From an uncultured Gammaproteobacteria bacterium (GTDB taxonomy: Bacteria; Pseudomonadota; Gammaproteobacteria; SZUA-229), in NCBI GenBank assembly GCA_963711255.1, contig CAVQDO010000019.1, positions 83,022 to 147,021 of the forward strand: 64,000 nt of DNA. The letters run 5' to 3'. Within the stretch, counting starts at the first letter, position 1. Every line of letters begins with the position of its first letter. The position numbers were made by a program, and so were the translations under genes. Under the pieces are notes generated by a model, which worked only from the letters and a program-made list of their open reading frames with translations, ran no database searches and was not told the origin of the DNA. Positions 32,727-53,398 of the stretch are shown piece after piece.

Positions 32727-33476
32727 GTGGCCGAACAACTCCTTATATTTATCATTTCGCTGGTTGCCAACCTGTTTTCCGCCCTATCTGGCGGTGGCGC
32801 CGGTTTAATACAGCTGCCAGCCCTTATTTTCCTTGGCCTGCCCTTCGGACTGGCCCTCGCCACCCACAAAGTGGCGACTATCGCGCTGGGCATCGGTGCC
32901 ACGGCACGCCACCTGAAAGAAAACCGGATCGACCGTGATTTTGCCCTGGTGATGATCATTTCCGGCCTGCCCGGAGTAGTTCTCGGCGCGAGCTTTATTC
33001 TGCAAATCCCTGACCAAATCGCAAAAGTTGCTCTCGGCCTGCTTACCATGGGCCTGGGCATCTATTCCTTTCTTTCGCCCCAGCTGGGACAAACTTGCGA
33101 GTTAAAAAATCGTCATTTAAAGGGTTATATCATCGGCGGCCTGGCGTTATTCGGTATCGGTATCCTGAACGGTTCACTAACTTCGGGTACCGGGCTGTTC
33201 GTCACCCTGTGGCTAATCCGCTGGTTCGGCTTTGACTACAAATTAGCTGTCACCTATACCCTGGTTTTTGTCGGCCTGTTCTGGAATGCCTCCGGGGCGA
33301 TTACGCTGGGGCTTTTGGGTGATATTCACTGGTTATGGATTCCGGCTTTGTTACTGGGTTCTCTTATTGGCGGGTATATTGGGGCGCATTTGTCGATTGT
33401 TAAGGGGAATCGGGTGATTAAGCGGAGTTATGAGGTGGTTACTTTGTTGATTGGGTTGAAGTTGGTTTTGGGGTAG
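32727..33476 (+). CDS. TauE/SafE family sulfite/anion exporter
   Basis: 249 aa polytopic protein with an internal duplication and glycine-rich helices typical of TauE/SafE (DUF81). Confidence 0.7.
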   Translation: MAEQLLIFIISLVANLFSALSGGGAGLIQLPALIFLGLPFGLALATHKVATIALGIGATARHLKENRIDRDFALVMIISGLPGVVLGASFILQIPDQIAKVALGLLTMGLGIYSFLSPQLGQTCELKNRHLKGYIIGGLALFGIGILNGSLTSGTGLFVTLWLIRWFGFDYKLAVTYTLVFVGLFWNASGAITLGLLGDIHWLWIPALLLGSLIGGYIGAHLSIVKGNRVIKRSYEVVTLLIGLKLVLG

Positions 33477-33477
33477 T

Positions 33478-34207
33478 TTTGTTTTGTCTTTTGGTATTAA
33501 TATTTTCTGTTGTTTGCTTACTTTGGCATTGCGGTTCTCGCACCGCGGGCGAGTTACTCTTTTGCTACAGCCCAAAAGAGTAACCAGAAAAGGCCGCCGC
33601 GAACTCGATAGCCCCGGGTGAAGCGTCCGGGGAACCTGAATTTGAGGGTATCTGCTCTATTGGCGTTTGTGTTTTACGGAAATAATTATTGCTTACTTTG
33701 GCCCGAGCCGCCCCGATACGCCGTCCGGGCGTAGCGTGGCTAAATCCGCCGTCCATGGCGGATTTGCTCTACGTGTTGGCAAATTCAGCTATCGAAGGCG
33801 GGAGAGTCAAAGTCAAAAAACAGAGTCAATAGCACCAGCAGGAACACAGCAAAAAACATGGCGCGCGGCGCCATAGCTGGAGAAGCGTTTGTTTCGTTTC
33901 TTGTTTTTCTTTGTTTTTCTCCCCTTTTGTTTGCTGACTTTGGGGGCATTGGTAGAGCAAATCCGCCATGGACGGCGGATTTAGTGATGCTGCGCCTGGA
34001 CGGCGCATCAGCACGGGCTCGTAGGCAATGCGCCCAAAGTCAGGTACCCCGAGTGTTTTTCTCGGGGCAAACAAGTCGGGGCGGCATTCTTTCTGGTTAC
34101 TTTTCTTTTGCTGCAGAAAGAAAAGTAACTCGCCCGCGGTGCGAGAACCGCAAGACCTAAGTAAGCAAACAACAGTAAATATTAACGCCAACAACAAATA
34201 AAAAACG
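33478..34207. repeat. About 730 bp nested quasi-palindromic non-coding element filling the convergent tauE/pyrE intergenic gap
   Basis: Outer arm 33495-33565 is the reverse complement of 34105-34190. Inner arm 33700-33783 is the reverse complement of 33940-34040. A perfect 33-nt pair ctaaatccgccgtccatggcggatttgctctac lies at 33740-33772 and 33952-33984. A central hairpin atggcgc-gcg-gcgccat lies at 33858-33874. Confidence 0.85.
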
Positions 34208-39262: not shown

Positions 39263-39730
39263 TTACAAGTCATTCAGCATCTTTTGCTGATCTTCATGAC
39301 GTTGCTTGAGTAGATCTTCGACACCTTTTGCATCATTCATGACTTTTTTCATGCCTTTCATGGAATACGGGCTCGGCACTTCGGCTACATCCTCTTCTTC
39401 GGGTTCTTCCTCAACTGGCGGTTTTACTGCCTTCATCAGGTTACTGTTCGGATCTAAAGTGAGCTGCTCGGTGTCATGACCAACAGGCGGTGTATTACTA
39501 AACTGCATGACACCATTCTCATCTCGCCATTTATACACCTGCACTTTTTCATTGCTAACAACACTGCTGAGATTTTTAGGCGCTTTAGCTTTCAGTTTCT
39601 TAAACTCAGACATGCCACCGCTGATACCTGAATCAAAAAACGACATCGGGTCAAATTTACCCATATATATCATTGGCATAACCGAAAGAAAACCCAGAAT
39701 TACCAGCATTGATATTATTTTGAATTTCAT
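39263..39730 (-). CDS. DUF4124 domain protein (paralog of 31997..32650)
   Basis: Signal peptide plus VYKWRDENGVMQFSNTPP motif. Confidence 0.55.
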   Translation of the reverse strand: MKFKIISMLVILGFLSVMPMIYMGKFDPMSFFDSGISGGMSEFKKLKAKAPKNLSSVVSNEKVQVYKWRDENGVMQFSNTPPVGHDTEQLTLDPNSNLMKAVKPPVEEEPEEEDVAEVPSPYSMKGMKKVMNDAKGVEDLLKQRHEDQQKMLNDL

Positions 39731-39976
39731 TATAAAGTCTCTTCTCTGTCTTCTTTATTGCTCATAAAATGCCATAAAGTATGGACTATGCCCCCGTAGA
39801 AATCAGTAAAACTCCACTAAATTTCAGGCAAATCTGCCCTTCATAAATACACTTGCTTATAAAATCACTTACAGGTAGAATTTACGCCCTGTTTTTTCGG
39901 CCTTTACTCGCCTTGATTATCTATAGTTTTAGGATAGATTTTAGGCGGATGTTTCAGGTATCGAAAATTATTATCA

Positions 39977-40016
39977 TTGGCCCAGGGGTGACCCAAAAGG
40001 GTGATCCAGGGGCCAA
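39977..40016. repeat. 40-bp imperfect palindrome upstream of rpmE (possible operator)
   Basis: ttggcccaggggtgacccaaaagggtgatccaggggccaa; shares the CCAGGGRTG core with repeats downstream of rpmE. Confidence 0.5.
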
Positions 40017-40048
40017 TAATTAACATCTGAATTACCATCGGAATAGAC

Positions 40049-40258
40049 ATGAAAGCTGATATACACCCAAAATACAACGACGTAAATGTTAAATGCAGCT
40101 GCGGCAATACATTCGCCACACGCTCTACTTATGGTAAAGATGATCTGACCATCGATGTCTGCTCTGAATGCCACCCGTTTTACACTGGCAAGCAAAAGAT
40201 TCTTGATTCTGCTGGTCAAATCGACAAATTCAACAAACGTTTTGGCAGTAAGTCTTAA
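40049..40258 (+). CDS. rpmE: 50S ribosomal protein L31 (Zn-binding C+ form)
   Basis: MKADIHPKY... with CxC...CxxC zinc ribbon, 69 aa. Confidence 0.9.
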
Positions 40259-40283
40259 CAGGGCCGTCACAGATATGCCTGTT

Positions 40284-40313
40284 AAAAAAGACGCTTTTCA
40301 GCGTCTTTTTTTA
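40284..40313 (+). terminator. Rho-independent terminator of rpmE
   Basis: agacgc-ttttca-gcgtct stem-loop followed by a T7 run. Confidence 0.7.
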
Positions 40314-40517
40314 TGTCCAGGGATGGACGGTATGTCGCAAGGAGCCAGGGATGGCGGTGCAACGATGCCAAGGAAGAGCGGTATAGCGCTTAGAGCCAGG
40401 ACGGCGGTGCGCATATGTCCAGGGATGGAGCGGTATGTCGCAAGGAGCCAGGGATGGCGGTGCGACGATGTCAGGGAAGAGCGGTATTGCGCATAGAGCC
40501 AGGACGGCGGCGCGAAC
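40314..40517. repeat. Two tandem ~102-bp direct repeats, each containing three CCAGGRATGGCGG-like sub-motifs
   Basis: Unit 1 at 40314-40415 and unit 2 at 40416-40517 are over 90 percent identical; the motif ccagggatgg[a/c]ggt recurs six times. Confidence 0.85.
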
Positions 40518-41292
40518 AATCCTGCTTACAGCCTGCTATTTAACCACCACGCCGCTGTTAGCACAAAATGCATGCACCCTTGCTGGCAACGAAGAATACG
40601 ATAAAACGGCTACCGTCAGCCAGGTCTACGATGGCGACACACTAAGACTCAGTAACGGCCAAAAAGTACGACTTATTGGTATCAACACTCCCGAAATGTC
40701 GCGCAATAACAGGACAGCAGAACCTTATGCGGTTGATGCCAAAAATGCGCTCAACGCCTTATTCAGTCAAAATAAAACCATCAAGTTACTGTATGGCAAA
40801 GAGAAAAAAGATAACTATGGTCGTATCCTGGCTCATGGCTTTCTGGCTGATGACAGGAATATACAGGCCAGCCTGCTAAACCTGGGCCTTGCCAGGGCCA
40901 TAGCAATACCACCGAATACCCGGTTTAGCACCTGTTATCAACAACAGGAACTTGGCGCACGCTGCAGTAAATCCGGCCTCTGGAAAAAACCCGGCATTAT
41001 TCTCGCCAAAAAACTTAAACCAAAAAATACTGGCTACCAGCTGCTGGAGGGGCAGGTTAAAAAAATCGACCGTAACAAACAGGGCATCTGGCTCAACATC
41101 GATAATAAGCTCACTATCGGTATCCGCCCTGAAAACCTGGCATTATTTAATGACTCAGTAATAAATGCCCTGCTAAATCAGACAATTATCGTGCGCGGCT
41201 GGGTTAATAAAAGTAACCGTTCAACACCTTATTACCTGCGTATTAAACACCCTGCCGCCTTGCAGTTAAGCCGTGATTTCGCCTGTCGCTAA
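40468..41292 (+). CDS. Secreted thermonuclease (staphylococcal nuclease/SNase-like)
   Basis: Signal peptide (RTILLTACYLTTTPLLAQNA) and the SNase core motifs DGDTLRL and LIGINTPE; the track ORF starts at 40435 inside the repeat, but an internal Met at 40468 is preferred. Confidence 0.7.
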   Translation: MSGKSGIAHRARTAARTILLTACYLTTTPLLAQNACTLAGNEEYDKTATVSQVYDGDTLRLSNGQKVRLIGINTPEMSRNNRTAEPYAVDAKNALNALFSQNKTIKLLYGKEKKDNYGRILAHGFLADDRNIQASLLNLGLARAIAIPPNTRFSTCYQQQELGARCSKSGLWKKPGIILAKKLKPKNTGYQLLEGQVKKIDRNKQGIWLNIDNKLTIGIRPENLALFNDSVINALLNQTIIVRGWVNKSNRSTPYYLRIKHPAALQLSRDFACR

Positions 41293-49313: not shown

Positions 49314-49835
49314 ATGGGAAGATACCGACCACCACAACCCGTGGGATCAAAATATATCACAGCCGGCGGGCATAAGCGCCTGACTGAAGAACTTGATTAC
49401 CTGTGGAAAAAAAAGCGCCCCGAAGTCACCCGCATTCTGTCTGAGGCGGCGGCAGAGGGGGACCGCTCAGAAAATGCTGAATATATTTATCGCAAAAAAG
49501 AGCTGCGTGAAATTGATGCACGGGTACGGTTTCTGCGTAAAAGACTGGATGACATGGTAATAGTAGACCGCATACCCAGTGAAACCGGCAAGGTTTTTTT
49601 TGGCGCCTGGGTAACCATCGAAAATGAAACGGGGGAGGAAAAAACCTACCGCGTCGTTGGCCCGGATGAATTTGACGCAAAACTGGGCTATATCAGTATG
49701 GACTCGCCCATGGGAAAAGCCCTATTAGGCAAATCGCTTGATGATGATTTCAGCATTAAGGTAGATACAAAAGATAGCCAGCTGAAACAAACGTACATTA
49801 TTAATGAAATCACTTACAAGAGCGATGAGGACTGA
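49314..49835 (+). CDS. greB: Transcription elongation factor GreB
   Basis: GreA/B coiled-coil and C-terminal domain motifs (GDRSENAEY, GKVFFGAWV, YISMDSPMGKALLGK); basic N-terminus; the true start may be GTG at 49341. Confidence 0.8.
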   Translation: MGRYRPPQPVGSKYITAGGHKRLTEELDYLWKKKRPEVTRILSEAAAEGDRSENAEYIYRKKELREIDARVRFLRKRLDDMVIVDRIPSETGKVFFGAWVTIENETGEEKTYRVVGPDEFDAKLGYISMDSPMGKALLGKSLDDDFSIKVDTKDSQLKQTYIINEITYKSDED

Positions 49836-49870
49836 TAATTACCAGAAATGTGGATTATTTCTCGCATAAA

Positions 49871-49896
49871 AAAACCCTCATGAAGAGGGTTTTTTG
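49871..49896 (+). terminator. Rho-independent terminator of greB
   Basis: aaaaccctc-atgaa-gagggtttttt. Confidence 0.7.
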
Positions 49897-49971
49897 TTTA
49901 CAACCAGTGATACACGGTTCGGCTATGCACGGCCGATGCATGCAGAGCACCGGACCGAACTTACCCTACTA

Positions 49972-50403
49972 CTAGTAGCCGTATTGTTGGCGTGGAGCGT
50001 AGTATCCTGGTGGTGGACCGTATGGAGATGGTGCATTATTCGCCGGTGCGTTATTTGCAGGTGCTTGTTGCGCGGGTGCTTGTTGTGCAGGCGCAGGTGC
50101 ATAACCCTGAGGTGGCGCGTAATAACCTGGAGGCGGACCGTACCCTGGACCTGGGCCATAGCCATACCCTGGACCTGGACCATAACCGTAACCCGGGCCA
50201 GGACCGTAACCATAACCTGGACCATAGTAATCATCGTCATCATCAAACGCATCTTCCATTTCTTCCATCCAGTAACGTGGATCCCATTCGTCATAAGGGT
50301 TCCAGTCATTACCGCCCCAGCTGTCATTACCAAAGAATGCATAGCTGCTTGTTGCCGTTAGCAATAAACTCATTGCTATCGCTAATCGTACGATTGCTCT
50401 CAT
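49972..50403 (-). CDS. Secreted low-complexity Gly/Pro/Tyr-rich repeat protein
   Basis: Signal peptide MRAIVRLAIAMSLLLTATSSYA with a GGAGA RBS, then GYGYGPGPGY repeats and APAQQAPANNAP repeats; the DNA repeats create ORFs on both strands. Confidence 0.55.
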   Translation of the reverse strand: MRAIVRLAIAMSLLLTATSSYAFFGNDSWGGNDWNPYDEWDPRYWMEEMEDAFDDDDDYYGPGYGYGPGPGYGYGPGPGYGYGPGPGYGPPPGYYAPPQGYAPAPAQQAPAQQAPANNAPANNAPSPYGPPPGYYAPRQQYGY

Positions 50404-50595
50404 TATCTTCTCCATCATCAGGAATAATTGTTCTACCGCTGTCATTCTAAGACAGCACCCACCTTGCTTAAATGATCTGCGTCAATATTCCGCATTTCTT
50501 CATTAAGTTTAAAATTGCAACGTTTTCAACGACAACCACAAGGACGTGTATCGTTTATTTCTTTTTTTCCATGCTATCCAGAGCATCACCAAGAT

Positions 50596-52621: not shown

Positions 52622-53353
52622 ATGCGTCGTACACCTAAAGAAGAAATTGATGATCCACGTAGAGAATTATTAGTCAAAGCACTATCTACCGGAATGTTTG
52701 TTGCTGGCGGCAGTGCCGGGATATTACAACCCGTACATGCCATGGGAAAAATCCCAAAAGTACTTGAGCCCGGAAAATCAATTTATGACATGCGCGGCAA
52801 CGTCACTGTCAGCGGCAAAAAAGCCGATGAGAACACACTAATCACTAGCAGTGACACTGTGGTAACCGGACGACGCAGTCACGTAGTCTTTGCGGTAGGT
52901 AAAGACGCCTTTGTATTACGTAGCAATAGCCAGCTTGAACTTAGTGGTTCTGGCATGCTGATAAATACCCTGCGACTTGTCACCGGCAAACTGCTTTCGG
53001 TATTTGGCAAAACCACACACAAAATCAATACACCAAACGCAACGATTGGTATTCGCGGAACTGGCGTTTATACCGAAGCGGAACCTGATCAAACCTATAT
53101 CTGCACCTGCTATGGTGTTGTCGACCTGTTTGCCAATAATGATAAGAGCAGCACAGAAACGATTACCTCACTGCATCACGATGCGCCACGGTATATCCTT
53201 TCTAACGAGGCCAGTGGCAGAAACATTCGAGAAGCACCTTTTATTAACCATACCGACCTTGAATTGCAGGTTATCGAAGAGCTCGTTGGTCGCGAACCAC
53301 CATTTACAATGGCAGGCGGCGGATATTCAGCACCGCGACGCACTGATTACTGA
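52622..53353 (+). CDS. Tat-exported FecR-domain-like protein
   Basis: Twin-arginine signal (RRELLVKALSTGMFVAGGSAG); the central region resembles the FecR/DUF4880 beta-sandwich. Confidence 0.45.
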   Translation: MRRTPKEEIDDPRRELLVKALSTGMFVAGGSAGILQPVHAMGKIPKVLEPGKSIYDMRGNVTVSGKKADENTLITSSDTVVTGRRSHVVFAVGKDAFVLRSNSQLELSGSGMLINTLRLVTGKLLSVFGKTTHKINTPNATIGIRGTGVYTEAEPDQTYICTCYGVVDLFANNDKSSTETITSLHHDAPRYILSNEASGRNIREAPFINHTDLELQVIEELVGREPPFTMAGGGYSAPRRTDY

Positions 53354-53398
53354 TTACTGATTACGTTATGATTAGTGATTAGTGATTAGTGATTATTT
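53343..53398. repeat. Heptamer microsatellite (tgattac)x3 ... (tgattag)x4
   Basis: Read directly: ctgattactgattactgattacgttatgattagtgattagtgattagtgatta; it overlaps the stop codon of the upstream ORF. Confidence 0.8.

What the first reader, a model, noticed from the sequence alone, without database searches (positions are those of the whole stretch)
40314..40517. Two ~102 bp tandem repeats with six CCAGGGATGGCGG-like motifs between rpmE and a secreted nuclease gene
Two near-identical units lie directly after the rpmE terminator, at 40314-40415 and 40416-40517. Each carries three copies of a roughly 14-nt motif ccagg(g)atgg[a/c]ggt(g), spaced about 30-50 bp apart. The array overlaps the predicted start region of a secreted SNase-like thermonuclease gene. 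A related 40-bp palindrome containing CCAGGGGTG / CCAGGGGCC lies just upstream of rpmE at 39977-40016. Arrays of a repeated GC-rich motif in an otherwise AT-rich intergenic region suggest a regulator-binding array, a REP-like element family, or a variable-number repeat that affects nuclease expression.
Basis: seen in the sequence. Interest (0 to 1): 0.6.

Follow-up and report, generated by a model that had tools for sequence, protein, structure and literature searches.

The report
Terminator-hugging GGA-hairpin repeat array
The repeat is real: it is four copies of a 51-base, two-hairpin element from an apparently undescribed family that lands right after transcription terminators in sulfur bacteria, a Desulfotalea plasmid and phages, and here it sits inside the start of a nuclease gene.

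Summary
The tandem repeat is real (40313-40517). It is best read as four head-to-tail units of about 51 nt, not two of 102. Each unit forms two hairpins whose loops show A(G/U)GGA(U), and compensatory changes across 61 distinct copies support both hairpins.

It is neither a locus-specific regulator array nor a coding repeat. The same unit occurs in about 33 unrelated gene contexts in metagenome contigs, on a Desulfotalea plasmid and in phage contigs. In roughly half of those contexts it starts at the base after an intrinsic terminator's T-run (0.4% of random positions).

Copy number at the rpmE-nuclease site runs from 0 to 4-5 among relatives. A second site that carries six or more units in a relative is empty in this window.

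In relatives without the repeat, the nuclease start codon lies upstream of the rpmE terminator. In the window the array was inserted after the T-run, and a +1 base now breaks that frame, so the nuclease must start at an ATG inside the array.

No Rfam family or paper matches the element. The loops match the CsrA/RsmA binding motif. The most likely reading is a mobile, expandable RNA module that binds a CsrA-type protein in read-through transcripts. A purely selfish DNA element is the main rival.

The parts
40049..40258 (+). rpmE (ribosomal protein L31), the upstream gene. Its terminator is the insertion point of the array.
   Evidence: Pfam Ribosomal_L31, E = 1.1e-33. The rpmE-to-nuclease gene order is conserved in 79 of 80 related loci.
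40275..40277 (+). Ancestral start codon of the nuclease, upstream of the terminator. In the window it now opens a 73-codon frame that ends at TAG 40494-40496.
   Evidence: Translation. Relatives without the repeat read M..KKDAxxRLFLC + signal peptide straight through the terminator.
40284..40312 (+). rpmE intrinsic terminator, symmetric in form: A6, 6-bp stem GACGCT/AGCGTC, loop TTTC, T7. It lies inside the ancestral nuclease reading frame.
   Evidence: Inverted repeat I1, sequence, terminator scan.
40313..40364 (+). Unit 1 (52 nt). Hairpin A is at 40315-40328 (GUCCA-GGGA-UGGAC). Hairpin B is at 40334-40364 (outer stem, AGGA internal loop, inner GCCA-GGGA-UGGC).
   Evidence: Model R1, 75.9 bits, E = 8e-17. 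Fold.
40365..40414 (+). Unit 2 (50 nt). Hairpin A is degenerate (CCAAGGAAGAG). Hairpin B has loop AGGAC.
   Evidence: R1, 52.7 bits. Fold.
40415..40467 (+). Unit 3 (53 nt). It carries one extra G (about 40430) relative to unit 1, which shifts the ancestral frame. It contains the in-frame nuclease ATG at 40435-40437, preceded by GGAG.
   Evidence: R1, 71.1 bits. Alignment A2. Translations.
40468..40517 (+). Unit 4 (50 nt). Its first three bases are the second in-frame nuclease ATG (40468-40470). Native sequence resumes at 40518.
   Evidence: R1, 52.1 bits. Translation. Comparison with empty sites.
40435..41292 (+). SNase-family nuclease ORF as it stands in the window. The signal-peptide hydrophobic core starts about 40516, with predicted cleavage after AQNA.
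   Evidence: ORF list, Pfam SNase. An identical 285-aa protein is on record (P0001). N-terminal comparison.

Best explanation
The stretch 40313-40517 is a four-unit array of a short structured repeat. The repeat belongs to a dispersed, expandable family.

**The unit.** Each unit of about 51 nt folds into two hairpins, A and B. Both loops display A(G/U)GGA(U). A third (A)GGA often sits in the internal loop of B, and an invariant GGUAU linker joins the hairpins.

**Where the family sits.** Family members usually lie immediately 3' of the T-run of an intrinsic terminator, on the strand of the upstream gene. They grow and shrink by whole units.

**What happened at this locus.** The target was the rpmE terminator, which ancestrally lies inside the 5' coding region of the downstream secreted nuclease, in the positively charged N-terminal part of its signal peptide. 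The insertion, plus a +1 base in unit 3, cut the old start codon (40275) off from the gene. The nuclease must now start at ATG 40435 or 40468, both inside the array.

**Why the array is in the nuclease mRNA.** The nuclease can only be transcribed by read-through of the rpmE terminator, so the array forms the 5' end of its mRNA.

**Inferred mechanism.** The GGA-loop hairpins match the binding motif of CsrA/RsmA. I infer that a CsrA-type protein binds them in read-through transcripts. Here that would occlude the embedded start codons and the GGAG just upstream of the first, making nuclease translation dependent on CsrA and on copy number.

**Confidence by step.**
- Dispersed, non-coding repeat family: about 0.9.
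- Terminator-directed placement: about 0.8.
- RNA-level binding of a CsrA-type protein: about 0.4.
- Real effect on the nuclease: about 0.35.
For: **Structure.**
- 91% of cells pair in 61 distinct units.
- The covariation score is 0.225, against 0.115 in shuffles (0 of 500 reach it).
- Slid registers give 12-51% pairing.
- Stem variants GUCC/GGAC, GCCC/GGGC, GUAC/GUAC, GCAC/GUGC and GCUC/GAGC all occur.
- The unpaired GGA loops, the GGUAU linker and the GG bulge are nearly invariant.

**Dispersal.**
- R1 hits lie in about 33 distinct contexts.
- These include sulfur-globule-protein, cytochrome c/ccmA and aminotransferase loci.
- They also include the Desulfotalea psychrophila plasmid NC_006139 and phage contigs: portal-to-scaffold, protease-to-capsid, and inovirus coat-to-g3p positions.

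**Terminator abutment.** 15 of the first 30 contexts have T>=5 directly upstream with a stable hairpin before it. Only 0.4% of random positions have such a T-run.

**Mobility and expansion.**
- 0 to 4-5 units sit at the orthologous rpmE site.
- L201 has six identical units.
- The window has an empty site at 49875-49889 where L201 is filled.

**Not coding.**
- Translations appear in different frames in different species.
- The frame is broken here.
- L002 has stop codons and a separate start after its array.

**Strand.**
- In hairpin A, G-U pairs outnumber A-C by 15 to 2.
- The GGA strand is the sense strand in the inovirus and in phage late operons.

**CsrA link.**
- The loops CAGGGAUG, CAGGAUG and CAUGGAUG equal the CsrB-type repeat.
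- Phage versions have quite different B stems but keep CAGGAG or AUGGAG in the loop.
- The window carries two TwoAYGGAY RNAs of the Csr/Rsm clan with near-identical loops. That family is predicted to bind CsrA (PMC4333381).
- The array has 12 GGA in 205 nt, about the density of CsrB and RsmZ (my own knowledge).
Against:
- An element placed after a terminator is transcribed only by read-through, which is an odd place for a sponge.
- Some copies lie between convergent genes or antisense to the neighbouring gene (L161, L244, L201b), where no role as a 5' leader is possible.
- The exact junction T-run|ATG and the cross-phylum and phage spread look more like a property of an insertion mechanism than of an RNA function.
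- The overall G-U versus A-C count is only 25 to 17, and both strands fold equally well.
- In this genome only one array was seen in 64 kb.
- The +1 G could be an assembly error. If so, the repeats would be translated as part of a long, cleaved signal peptide.
Confidence: 0.5

Rival explanations
1. The array is a purely selfish DNA-level element. The hairpins and invariant bases are recognition features for a transposase or recombinase that acts in trans on single-stranded DNA, as with REP/RAYT or IS200/IS605-type elements. Sites after terminators are simply safe landing places. The array has no RNA function, and the nuclease tolerates it because the cleaved signal peptide is forgiving.
For: - The junction is exact: T-run|ATG in most contexts, and a T before the element in all 45 copies listed.
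- Two independent empty sites both read T7-ATG.
- Only two symmetric A6-hairpin-T7 terminators were found in the window. They are the two array sites, and both are followed by ATG.
- Sites differ in presence or absence, and some arrays hold identical tandem units.
- The element spreads across phyla, a conjugative plasmid and phages of 41-62% GC.
- It has a mosaic build, with a second module X inserted between A and B.
- All three frames are open, so insertions into coding DNA can survive.
Against: - No transposase gene was seen next to any copy.
- Units are head to tail, never in the inverted pairs typical of REP doublets.
- There is no GTAG/CTAC flank.
- GGA is kept in the B loop even where the B stem is entirely different. 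That points to selection on the loop triplet rather than on a hairpin shape.
- Orientation follows the upstream gene in chromosomal contexts.
Confidence: 0.3
2. The repeats are a coding N-terminal extension of the nuclease. The extra G near 40430 is an assembly error, and the real protein starts at 40275 and carries two 34-residue repeats in a long signal-peptide N-region.
For: - Removing one base restores a single ORF from 40275 into the nuclease.
- In 13 of 23 array-bearing homologues, the called ORF is open from the ancestral start through the array.
- Units of 51 nt preserve the frame.
Against: - The same units are read in other frames in other species.
- They occur in intergenic DNA, between convergent genes, and in a phage on the strand opposite an ORF.
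- L002 has stops and its own start after the array.
- The compensatory stem changes would alter the peptide.
- 13 of 23 open frames is close to what three open frames and mostly 51-nt units would give by chance.
Confidence: 0.07
3. The functional strand is the minus strand. On this view the array is the body of a small RNA with UCC/CUCCUU (anti-Shine-Dalgarno-like) loops, and it ends at the symmetric terminator used in reverse.
For: - Most host terminators have an A4-A6 run upstream, so they could terminate minus-strand transcripts right after the array.
- The minus strand folds with the better z-scores (-4.4 and -3.4; -2.9 for the whole array).
- A weak Rfam sRNA hit (27.5 bits) is driven by the terminator in that orientation.
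Against: - There is no conserved promoter at the far end of the arrays, and the far flanks are unrelated.
- In the window the promoter would have to lie inside the nuclease gene.
- The element is on the only transcribed strand of an inovirus and of phage late operons.
- Hairpin A shows G-U over A-C by 15 to 2 on the plus strand.
Confidence: 0.06
4. The array is a set of double-stranded DNA binding sites for a transcription factor or nucleoid protein that controls the nuclease gene.
For: Repeated GC-rich motifs at regular spacing lie next to a gene start.
Against: - No promoter-like site lies between the terminator and the gene.
- Compensatory changes keep the hairpins, not a fixed duplex sequence.
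- The same units occur in unrelated contexts, including after the last gene of an operon.
Confidence: 0.03

Closest known systems
REP/BIME elements of enterobacteria and pseudomonads (mobilised by RAYT transposases)
   Same: Both are short, GC-rich, hairpin-forming extragenic repeats. Both are dispersed, often sit at the 3' ends of transcription units, occur in clusters of variable copy number, and are mosaic in build.
   Different: - Units here are head to tail in one orientation, not inverted pairs.
- There is no GTAG/CTAC flank.
- The element abuts the terminator T-run at an exact junction.
- GGA is conserved in the loops.
- No RAYT gene was seen.
- The element is also found in phages and on a plasmid of another phylum.
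Csr/Rsm sponge RNAs (CsrB, RsmY/Z) and the TwoAYGGAY RNA (RF01731)
   Same: Both show repeated GGA in hairpin loops and between hairpins, at about 6 per 100 nt. Both have two-hairpin units with A(Y/R)GGA(Y) loops. Two TwoAYGGAY genes with near-identical loops lie 6 kb away.
   Different: - The array has no promoter or terminator of its own and sits inside an mRNA or read-through region.
- No Rfam model matches it.
- It is a dispersed repeat, not a single-copy gene.
BOX elements of Streptococcus pneumoniae and Rickettsia palindromic elements (RPE)
   Same: - Like BOX, it is modular, with a variable number of internal modules and stable RNA-type folds.
- Like RPE, it can sit in frame inside protein-coding genes because all frames are open.
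   Different: It shares no sequence with them that I could test, occurs in different taxa, and shows a terminator-abutting placement not described for either. This comparison rests on my own knowledge.
Class C bacterial group II introns
   Same: Both show a preference for inserting just after intrinsic terminators. This is my own knowledge, used only as a precedent for such targeting.
   Different: Those introns are ribozyme retroelements of about 2 kb with a reverse transcriptase. This is a 51-nt unit with no coding capacity.

Membership tests
REP/BIME (RAYT-associated) | Short imperfect palindromes dispersed in many extragenic sites of a genome | tested here: inconclusive
   The element is dispersed across about 33 contexts in metagenome, phage and plasmid DNA. 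Some contigs carry 2-3 loci within 5-12 kb (L138, L167). In this genome, only one locus was found in 64 kb.
REP/BIME (RAYT-associated) | Conserved GTAG/CTAC tetranucleotide at the foot of the hairpin, and inverted REP pairs | tested here: not met
   Units start with AUG and are always head to tail on one strand. No GTAG flank is present.
REP/BIME (RAYT-associated) | A RAYT (Y1 transposase) gene flanked by the repeats in the same genome | not testable with these tools
   Only 64 kb of this genome and flanks of up to 20 kb elsewhere were available. No transposase domain appeared among the neighbours examined.
Csr/Rsm sponge RNA | Many GGA motifs presented in hairpin loops or single-stranded linkers | tested here: met
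   The array has 12 GGA in 205 nt. Both loops of the consensus unit carry GGA, and 36 of 61 units have a third in the internal loop.
Csr/Rsm sponge RNA | Independent gene with its own promoter (GacA/UvrY-dependent) and terminator | tested here: not met
   The array begins at the base after the rpmE T-run and runs into the nuclease coding sequence. No promoter-like or terminator-like site flanks it.
Csr/Rsm sponge RNA | Binds and titrates CsrA/RsmA | not testable with these tools
   This needs binding assays. No csrA gene was found in the DNA held.
TwoAYGGAY RNA (RF01731) and other Rfam families | Match to the family covariance model | tested here: not met
   There was no hit at gathering score or at E <= 10 over the array, nor in the phage loci. 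The true TwoAYGGAY copies at 33669-34049 score 53 and 69.5 bits.
Protein-coding tandem repeat | One conserved reading frame, with conservation at the amino-acid level | tested here: not met
   Frames differ between species. The frame is broken in the window. Copies occur in non-coding and antisense positions. Variation follows base pairing.

The most novel reading that the evidence does not exclude
The unit is a portable CsrA/RsmA-binding module that homes to the DNA just after intrinsic terminators and moves between phyla, plasmids and phages. Wherever it lands, it would put the read-through transcript and the next gene under Csr control. Downstream of very highly expressed genes (rpmE, sulfur-globule proteins, cytochromes) it would act as a read-through-dependent CsrA sponge. 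That would be a mobile element that rewires a global post-transcriptional regulon.
Probability: 0.2. Interest if true: 0.85.

Novelty: new variant of a known kind. Interest (0 to 1): 0.62.

Why it matters
If the family is what it appears to be, it adds a new kind of bacterial interspersed repeat. This one has a defined two-hairpin RNA-type structure and an unusually precise preference for the base after a terminator's T-run. Its range takes in uncultured sulfur-oxidising Gammaproteobacteria, a cultured sulfate reducer's plasmid and several phage types.

Three consequences follow.
- **Annotation.** Gene callers routinely fuse these arrays to neighbouring genes. Many nuclease homologues in public databases carry spurious N-terminal extensions of 50-120 residues.
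- **The local gene pair.** rpmE and the nuclease are arranged with the terminator inside the nuclease reading frame, and the insertion moved the nuclease start codon.
- **A testable hypothesis.** CsrA-type regulation might be spread by a mobile RNA module. Desulfotalea psychrophila LSv54 is cultured and carries a copy.

Tried and rejected
**Searches that found nothing**
- Rfam at gathering score on the whole window, and at E <= 10 on 39700-40800 and 40300-40530: nothing matched the array. There was only a terminator-driven STnc50 hit on the minus strand and a chance snoRNA hit.
- Exact-protein look-ups of L31 and of the nuclease (P0001) for the source contig: not on record.
- blastn of the array against GenBank phages: no match.
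- Literature: no paper links CsrA to REP elements. No paper contains the module A sequence except as unrelated primers. Searches on terminator-adjacent repeats and on Beggiatoaceae repeats and MITEs described other elements.

**Ideas considered and dropped**
- The upstream palindrome as a relative of the repeat: rejected.
- Module X, seen inside arrays elsewhere: absent from the window.
- Search of the protein database with the translated array, as a survey of contexts: only 23 small hypothetical ORFs, useful only as handles to fetch contigs.
- Most of the 120 metagenome pattern matches were chance hits in GC-rich contigs and were set aside.
- A dif/XerCD site, an integron attC site, a sigma-54 promoter and a small conserved peptide (MSRDGRY...) were compared by eye and dropped.
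  - The XerD arm and the attC core do not match.
  - The stem covariation changes the peptide.

Full report

Yes. Tandem Repeats Finder reports 40312-40514 as 2.0 copies of a 103-nt period (93% matches). It reports the same stretch as 4.0 copies of a 51-nt period (74% matches).

The array begins at the base after the rpmE terminator. That terminator reads A6 at 40284-40289, a 6-bp stem at 40290-40295/40300-40305, and T7 at 40306-40312. The array runs into the ORF 40435-41292, which carries a staphylococcal-nuclease domain. It is an island of GC 0.585 with GC skew +0.35, in flanks of GC 0.34-0.47. The perfect and near-perfect matches are all here.

**2. Anatomy of the repeat**

The natural unit is about 51 nt. 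A covariance model built from 21 hand-cut units (R1) finds four units in the window:
- 40313-40364 (75.9 bits)
- 40365-40414 (52.7 bits)
- 40415-40467 (71.1 bits)
- 40468-40517 (52.1 bits)

Nothing else in the 64 kb scores, even with filters off.

A unit reads: AUG, hairpin A (GUCCA-GGGA-UGGAC), linker GGUAU, hairpin B. Hairpin B has an outer stem NNCGCA/UGCGNN, an internal loop A(A/G)GA, an inner hairpin GCC-AGG(G)A(U)-GGC, and a GG bulge.

On 67 units (61 distinct) from 33 sources:
- 91% of cells pair.
- The covariation score is 0.225 against 0.115 in shuffles (0 of 500 reach it).
- Slid registers give 12-51% pairing. The hand alignment gives the same picture.

Caveat: the large alignment was fitted to the model. 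Even so, stem variants such as GUCC/GGAC, GCCC/GGGC, GUAC/GUAC, GCAC/GUGC and GCUC/GAGC are plain in the raw sequences.

The unpaired positions are the most conserved. These are GGA in both loops, the linker GGUAU (A and U in 61 of 61), and the GG bulge.

**3. The local gene arrangement**

rpmE followed by this nuclease is conserved in 79 of 80 related loci from many Gammaproteobacteria. In relatives that lack the repeat, the nuclease ORF starts a few bases after the rpmE stop codon and upstream of the terminator. The terminator hairpin itself encodes the positively charged start of the signal peptide (M..KKDAxxRLFLC), and the hydrophobic core follows directly. Of the 120 best homologues, 53 show exactly this with no repeat.

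It follows, by inference, that the nuclease is expressed only from transcripts that read through the rpmE terminator. A ribosome starting at that ATG would sit on the 5' arm of the hairpin.

In the window the array lies exactly between the T-run and the resumption of native sequence at 40518 (compare L015 and L091). The old start at 40275 still opens a frame that runs through units 1 and 2. One extra G in unit 3 shifts that frame, and it stops at 40494-40496. The nuclease frame has ATGs at 40435 (4 nt after a GGAG) and at 40468. Either gives a plausible signal peptide. If the extra G were an assembly error, the repeats would instead be translated as a long, cleaved N-terminal region.

**4. The repeat is not coding sequence as such**

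N-terminal extensions of homologues contain the same unit translated in different frames: CPWMDGIPQGARKAVR, GPYVARSQGWRCDEC, MSRDGRY. Sometimes the frame switches within one ORF. L002 has four and a half units followed by stop codons and a separate start codon. All three frames of the unit are open, so gene callers extend ORFs through it. Among 23 clearly array-bearing homologues, 13 are open from the ancestral start and 10 are not.

**5. Copy number varies**

At the orthologous rpmE-nuclease spacer, the 26 closest genome loci carry from 0 to 4-5 units:
- L002 has 4 units plus a partial one.
- L025 and L056 have 3 each.
- L012 and L019 have 2 each.
- Several have 1.
- At least 11 have none.

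**6. The unit belongs to a dispersed family**

Across 630 kb of rpmE-nuclease loci, the model hit only that spacer. A pattern scan of metagenome contigs, followed by the model, found the unit in at least 20 low-GC contigs with no rpmE or nuclease nearby. Some carry two or three separate loci within 5-12 kb (L138, L167, L198).

Neighbouring genes include sulfur-globule proteins, an M18 aminopeptidase and aminotransferase pair, cytochrome c/ccmA, and a multihaem cytochrome. Arrays reach seven or more units (L248). L201 has six identical 52-nt units, a sign of recent expansion.

A second module X (about 50 nt...TTGCTCCNTGCA...) is often inserted between A and B, giving a mosaic build. It is absent from the window.

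L201 is syntenic with window positions 45-50 kb (GreA is 86% identical). Where L201 has its array, between a Gly/Tyr-rich secreted protein gene and greA, the window has an empty site: terminator 49875-49889, then T7, then ATG on the minus strand.

**7. Range beyond this clade**

Hairpin A with its linker (ATGNNCAKGGATGNNCGGTAT) occurs in phage contigs of 41-62% GC:
- between portal and scaffold genes of T7-like phages, upstream of what look like two phage-polymerase promoters (my reading of the sequence) (L240, L241, L243)
- between protease and major capsid genes (L234, L235)
- between the major coat and g3p-like genes of an inovirus (L236)
- in further phage contigs

A copy also lies on the large conjugative plasmid of Desulfotalea psychrophila LSv54 (NC_006139, R1 40.6 bits). 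In these distant copies hairpin B has a quite different stem but still shows CAGGAG, AUGGAG or AGGAC in its loop.

**8. Placement after terminators**

In 15 of the first 30 independent contexts, the first unit starts directly after a run of five or more T that is preceded by a stable hairpin. Two more contexts are borderline terminators. A T-run of that kind precedes 0.4% of random positions in the same DNA. In all 45 copies listed, the base before the element is T.

The terminators belong to the upstream gene and exist at empty orthologous sites, so they are targets and not part of the element. Both empty sites read T7-ATG. A crude scan of the window found only two symmetric A6-hairpin-T7 terminators. 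These are the rpmE site and the empty site, and both are followed by ATG.

**9. Which strand matters?**

Both strands fold. Three observations favour the GGA strand:
- Hairpin A has 15 G-U against 2 A-C pairs. The total over all helices is a weaker 25 to 17.
- The element follows the direction of the upstream gene in chromosomal contexts.
- It lies on the only transcribed strand of an inovirus and of phage late operons.

A minus-strand small RNA ending at the symmetric terminator is conceivable. But the far ends of arrays share no promoter.

**10. What it most likely does**

Shown:
- a structured, non-coding, expandable repeat of a dispersed family
- placement after terminators
- insertion here into the 5' end of the nuclease gene, with the working start codon moved into the array

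Inferred:
- The loops CAGGGAUG, CAGGAUG and CAUGGAUG are the repeat of CsrB and the core of the CsrA selection consensus (my own knowledge).
- There are two such loops about 30 nt apart per unit, and 12 GGA in 205 nt.
- The same window holds two TwoAYGGAY RNAs (33669-33796 minus strand, 33928-34049 plus strand; Csr/Rsm clan) whose loops, CC-AUGGAC-GG and CC-UGGAC-GG, nearly equal those of hairpin B. That family has been predicted to bind CsrA (PMC4333381).

I therefore favour binding of a CsrA-type protein to read-through transcripts. At this locus, that would cover the start codons at 40435 and 40468. Translation of the residual 73-codon frame from 40275 would both oppose termination and open the hairpins.

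The main rival is that the hairpins serve only an insertion machinery and the array is neutral here. The evidence does not separate the two, and both could be true.

**11. Comparison with what is known**

No Rfam family matches, and no paper found describes the element.
- **REP/BIME:** it works like these in being a dispersed, hairpin-forming, 3'-end-associated repeat. It fails their defining features: there are no inverted pairs and no GTAG flank, and no RAYT gene was seen, though that last feature could not be properly tested.
- **Csr/Rsm sponges:** it resembles them in motif content. But it is not an independent gene.
- **BOX elements:** it shares their modularity.
- **Rickettsia palindromic elements:** it shares their ability to sit inside coding regions.
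- **Class C group II introns:** it shares their terminator targeting.

I classify it as a new variant of a known kind, namely interspersed structured repeats.

**12. Limits**
- Only 64 kb of the source genome was available.
- Collection scans were capped, and hits were selected by exact patterns, so family size and range are lower bounds.
- The contexts are biased towards units close to the consensus.
- No expression or binding data exist.
Its relatives are uncultured Gammaproteobacteria, some labelled Thiotrichaceae, that carry sulfur-globule protein genes.

Noticed in passing
window 33476-34206: A roughly 730-nt imperfect palindrome. The outer arms are 33476-33561 and 34121-34206 (85% complementary). 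The inner arms are 33708-33772 and 33952-34016 (86%). It holds two divergently oriented TwoAYGGAY RNAs (RF01731; 33669-33796 minus strand, 53 bits; 33928-34049 plus strand, 69.5 bits). The plus-strand copy is followed by a terminator-like hairpin. These are probably this organism's Csr/Rsm-type small RNAs.
   Followed up: partly
window 49836-49971 (terminator 49875-49889): An empty counterpart of an array site. The syntenic contig L201 (GreA 86% identical) carries six identical units plus a composite unit here, between a Gly/Tyr/Pro-repeat secreted protein gene (window 49972-50445, minus strand) and greA (49314-49835). The window has only the symmetric terminator, followed by ATG.
   Followed up: yes
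window 53342-53395: Heptamer direct repeats, ACTGATT x3 then AGTGATT x4, between convergent genes. They are one mismatch from the TAACTGA intergenic repeats described in marine Beggiatoaceae (PMC4679880).
   Followed up: no
window 39853-39900 and 39976-40017: The rpmE promoter (CTTGCTT, 17 nt, TAGAAT) and the first part of the leader (..CCCTGTTTTTT..) are conserved in most close relatives (visible in L001-L025 and L056). The strong hairpin at 39976-40017 in the leader (-30 kcal/mol, z = -5.2) is specific to this genome and unique in the window. Its origin is unknown.
   Followed up: partly
window 40275-40312, and loci L006, L008-L010, L015, L021: The rpmE intrinsic terminator lies inside the reading frame of the downstream nuclease, so the nuclease can be made only from read-through transcripts. 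A ribosome starting at the nuclease ATG would cover the 5' arm of the hairpin. That suggests translation-coupled escape from termination.
   Followed up: partly
L141, L171, L091, L096, L121, L140, L001, L003, L201-L203: A second repeat module of about 50 nt (consensus CAGAWAWTTGCTCCNTGCAWWWTCYGCACTTCCNCC..GG..GGTCG) is inserted precisely between hairpin A and hairpin B of units, sometimes in several tandem copies. It has its own hairpins and UCC-type loops.
   Followed up: no
L240, L241, L243 (T7-like phage contigs): Downstream of the element lie two tandem copies of a roughly 25-nt sequence ending in CCCCACAGGGAGAG, just before the scaffold gene. They look like promoters for a phage-encoded RNA polymerase, so the element sits between a terminator and the next promoter.
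   Followed up: no
protein database hits P0006-P0011, P0023, P0055, P0068, P0077, P0099, P0106 and others: Many public nuclease homologues are annotated with N-terminal extensions of 50-120 residues. These are translations of the repeat array, the rpmE terminator, and even the 3' end of rpmE in another frame. This is a systematic gene-calling artefact.
   Followed up: partly
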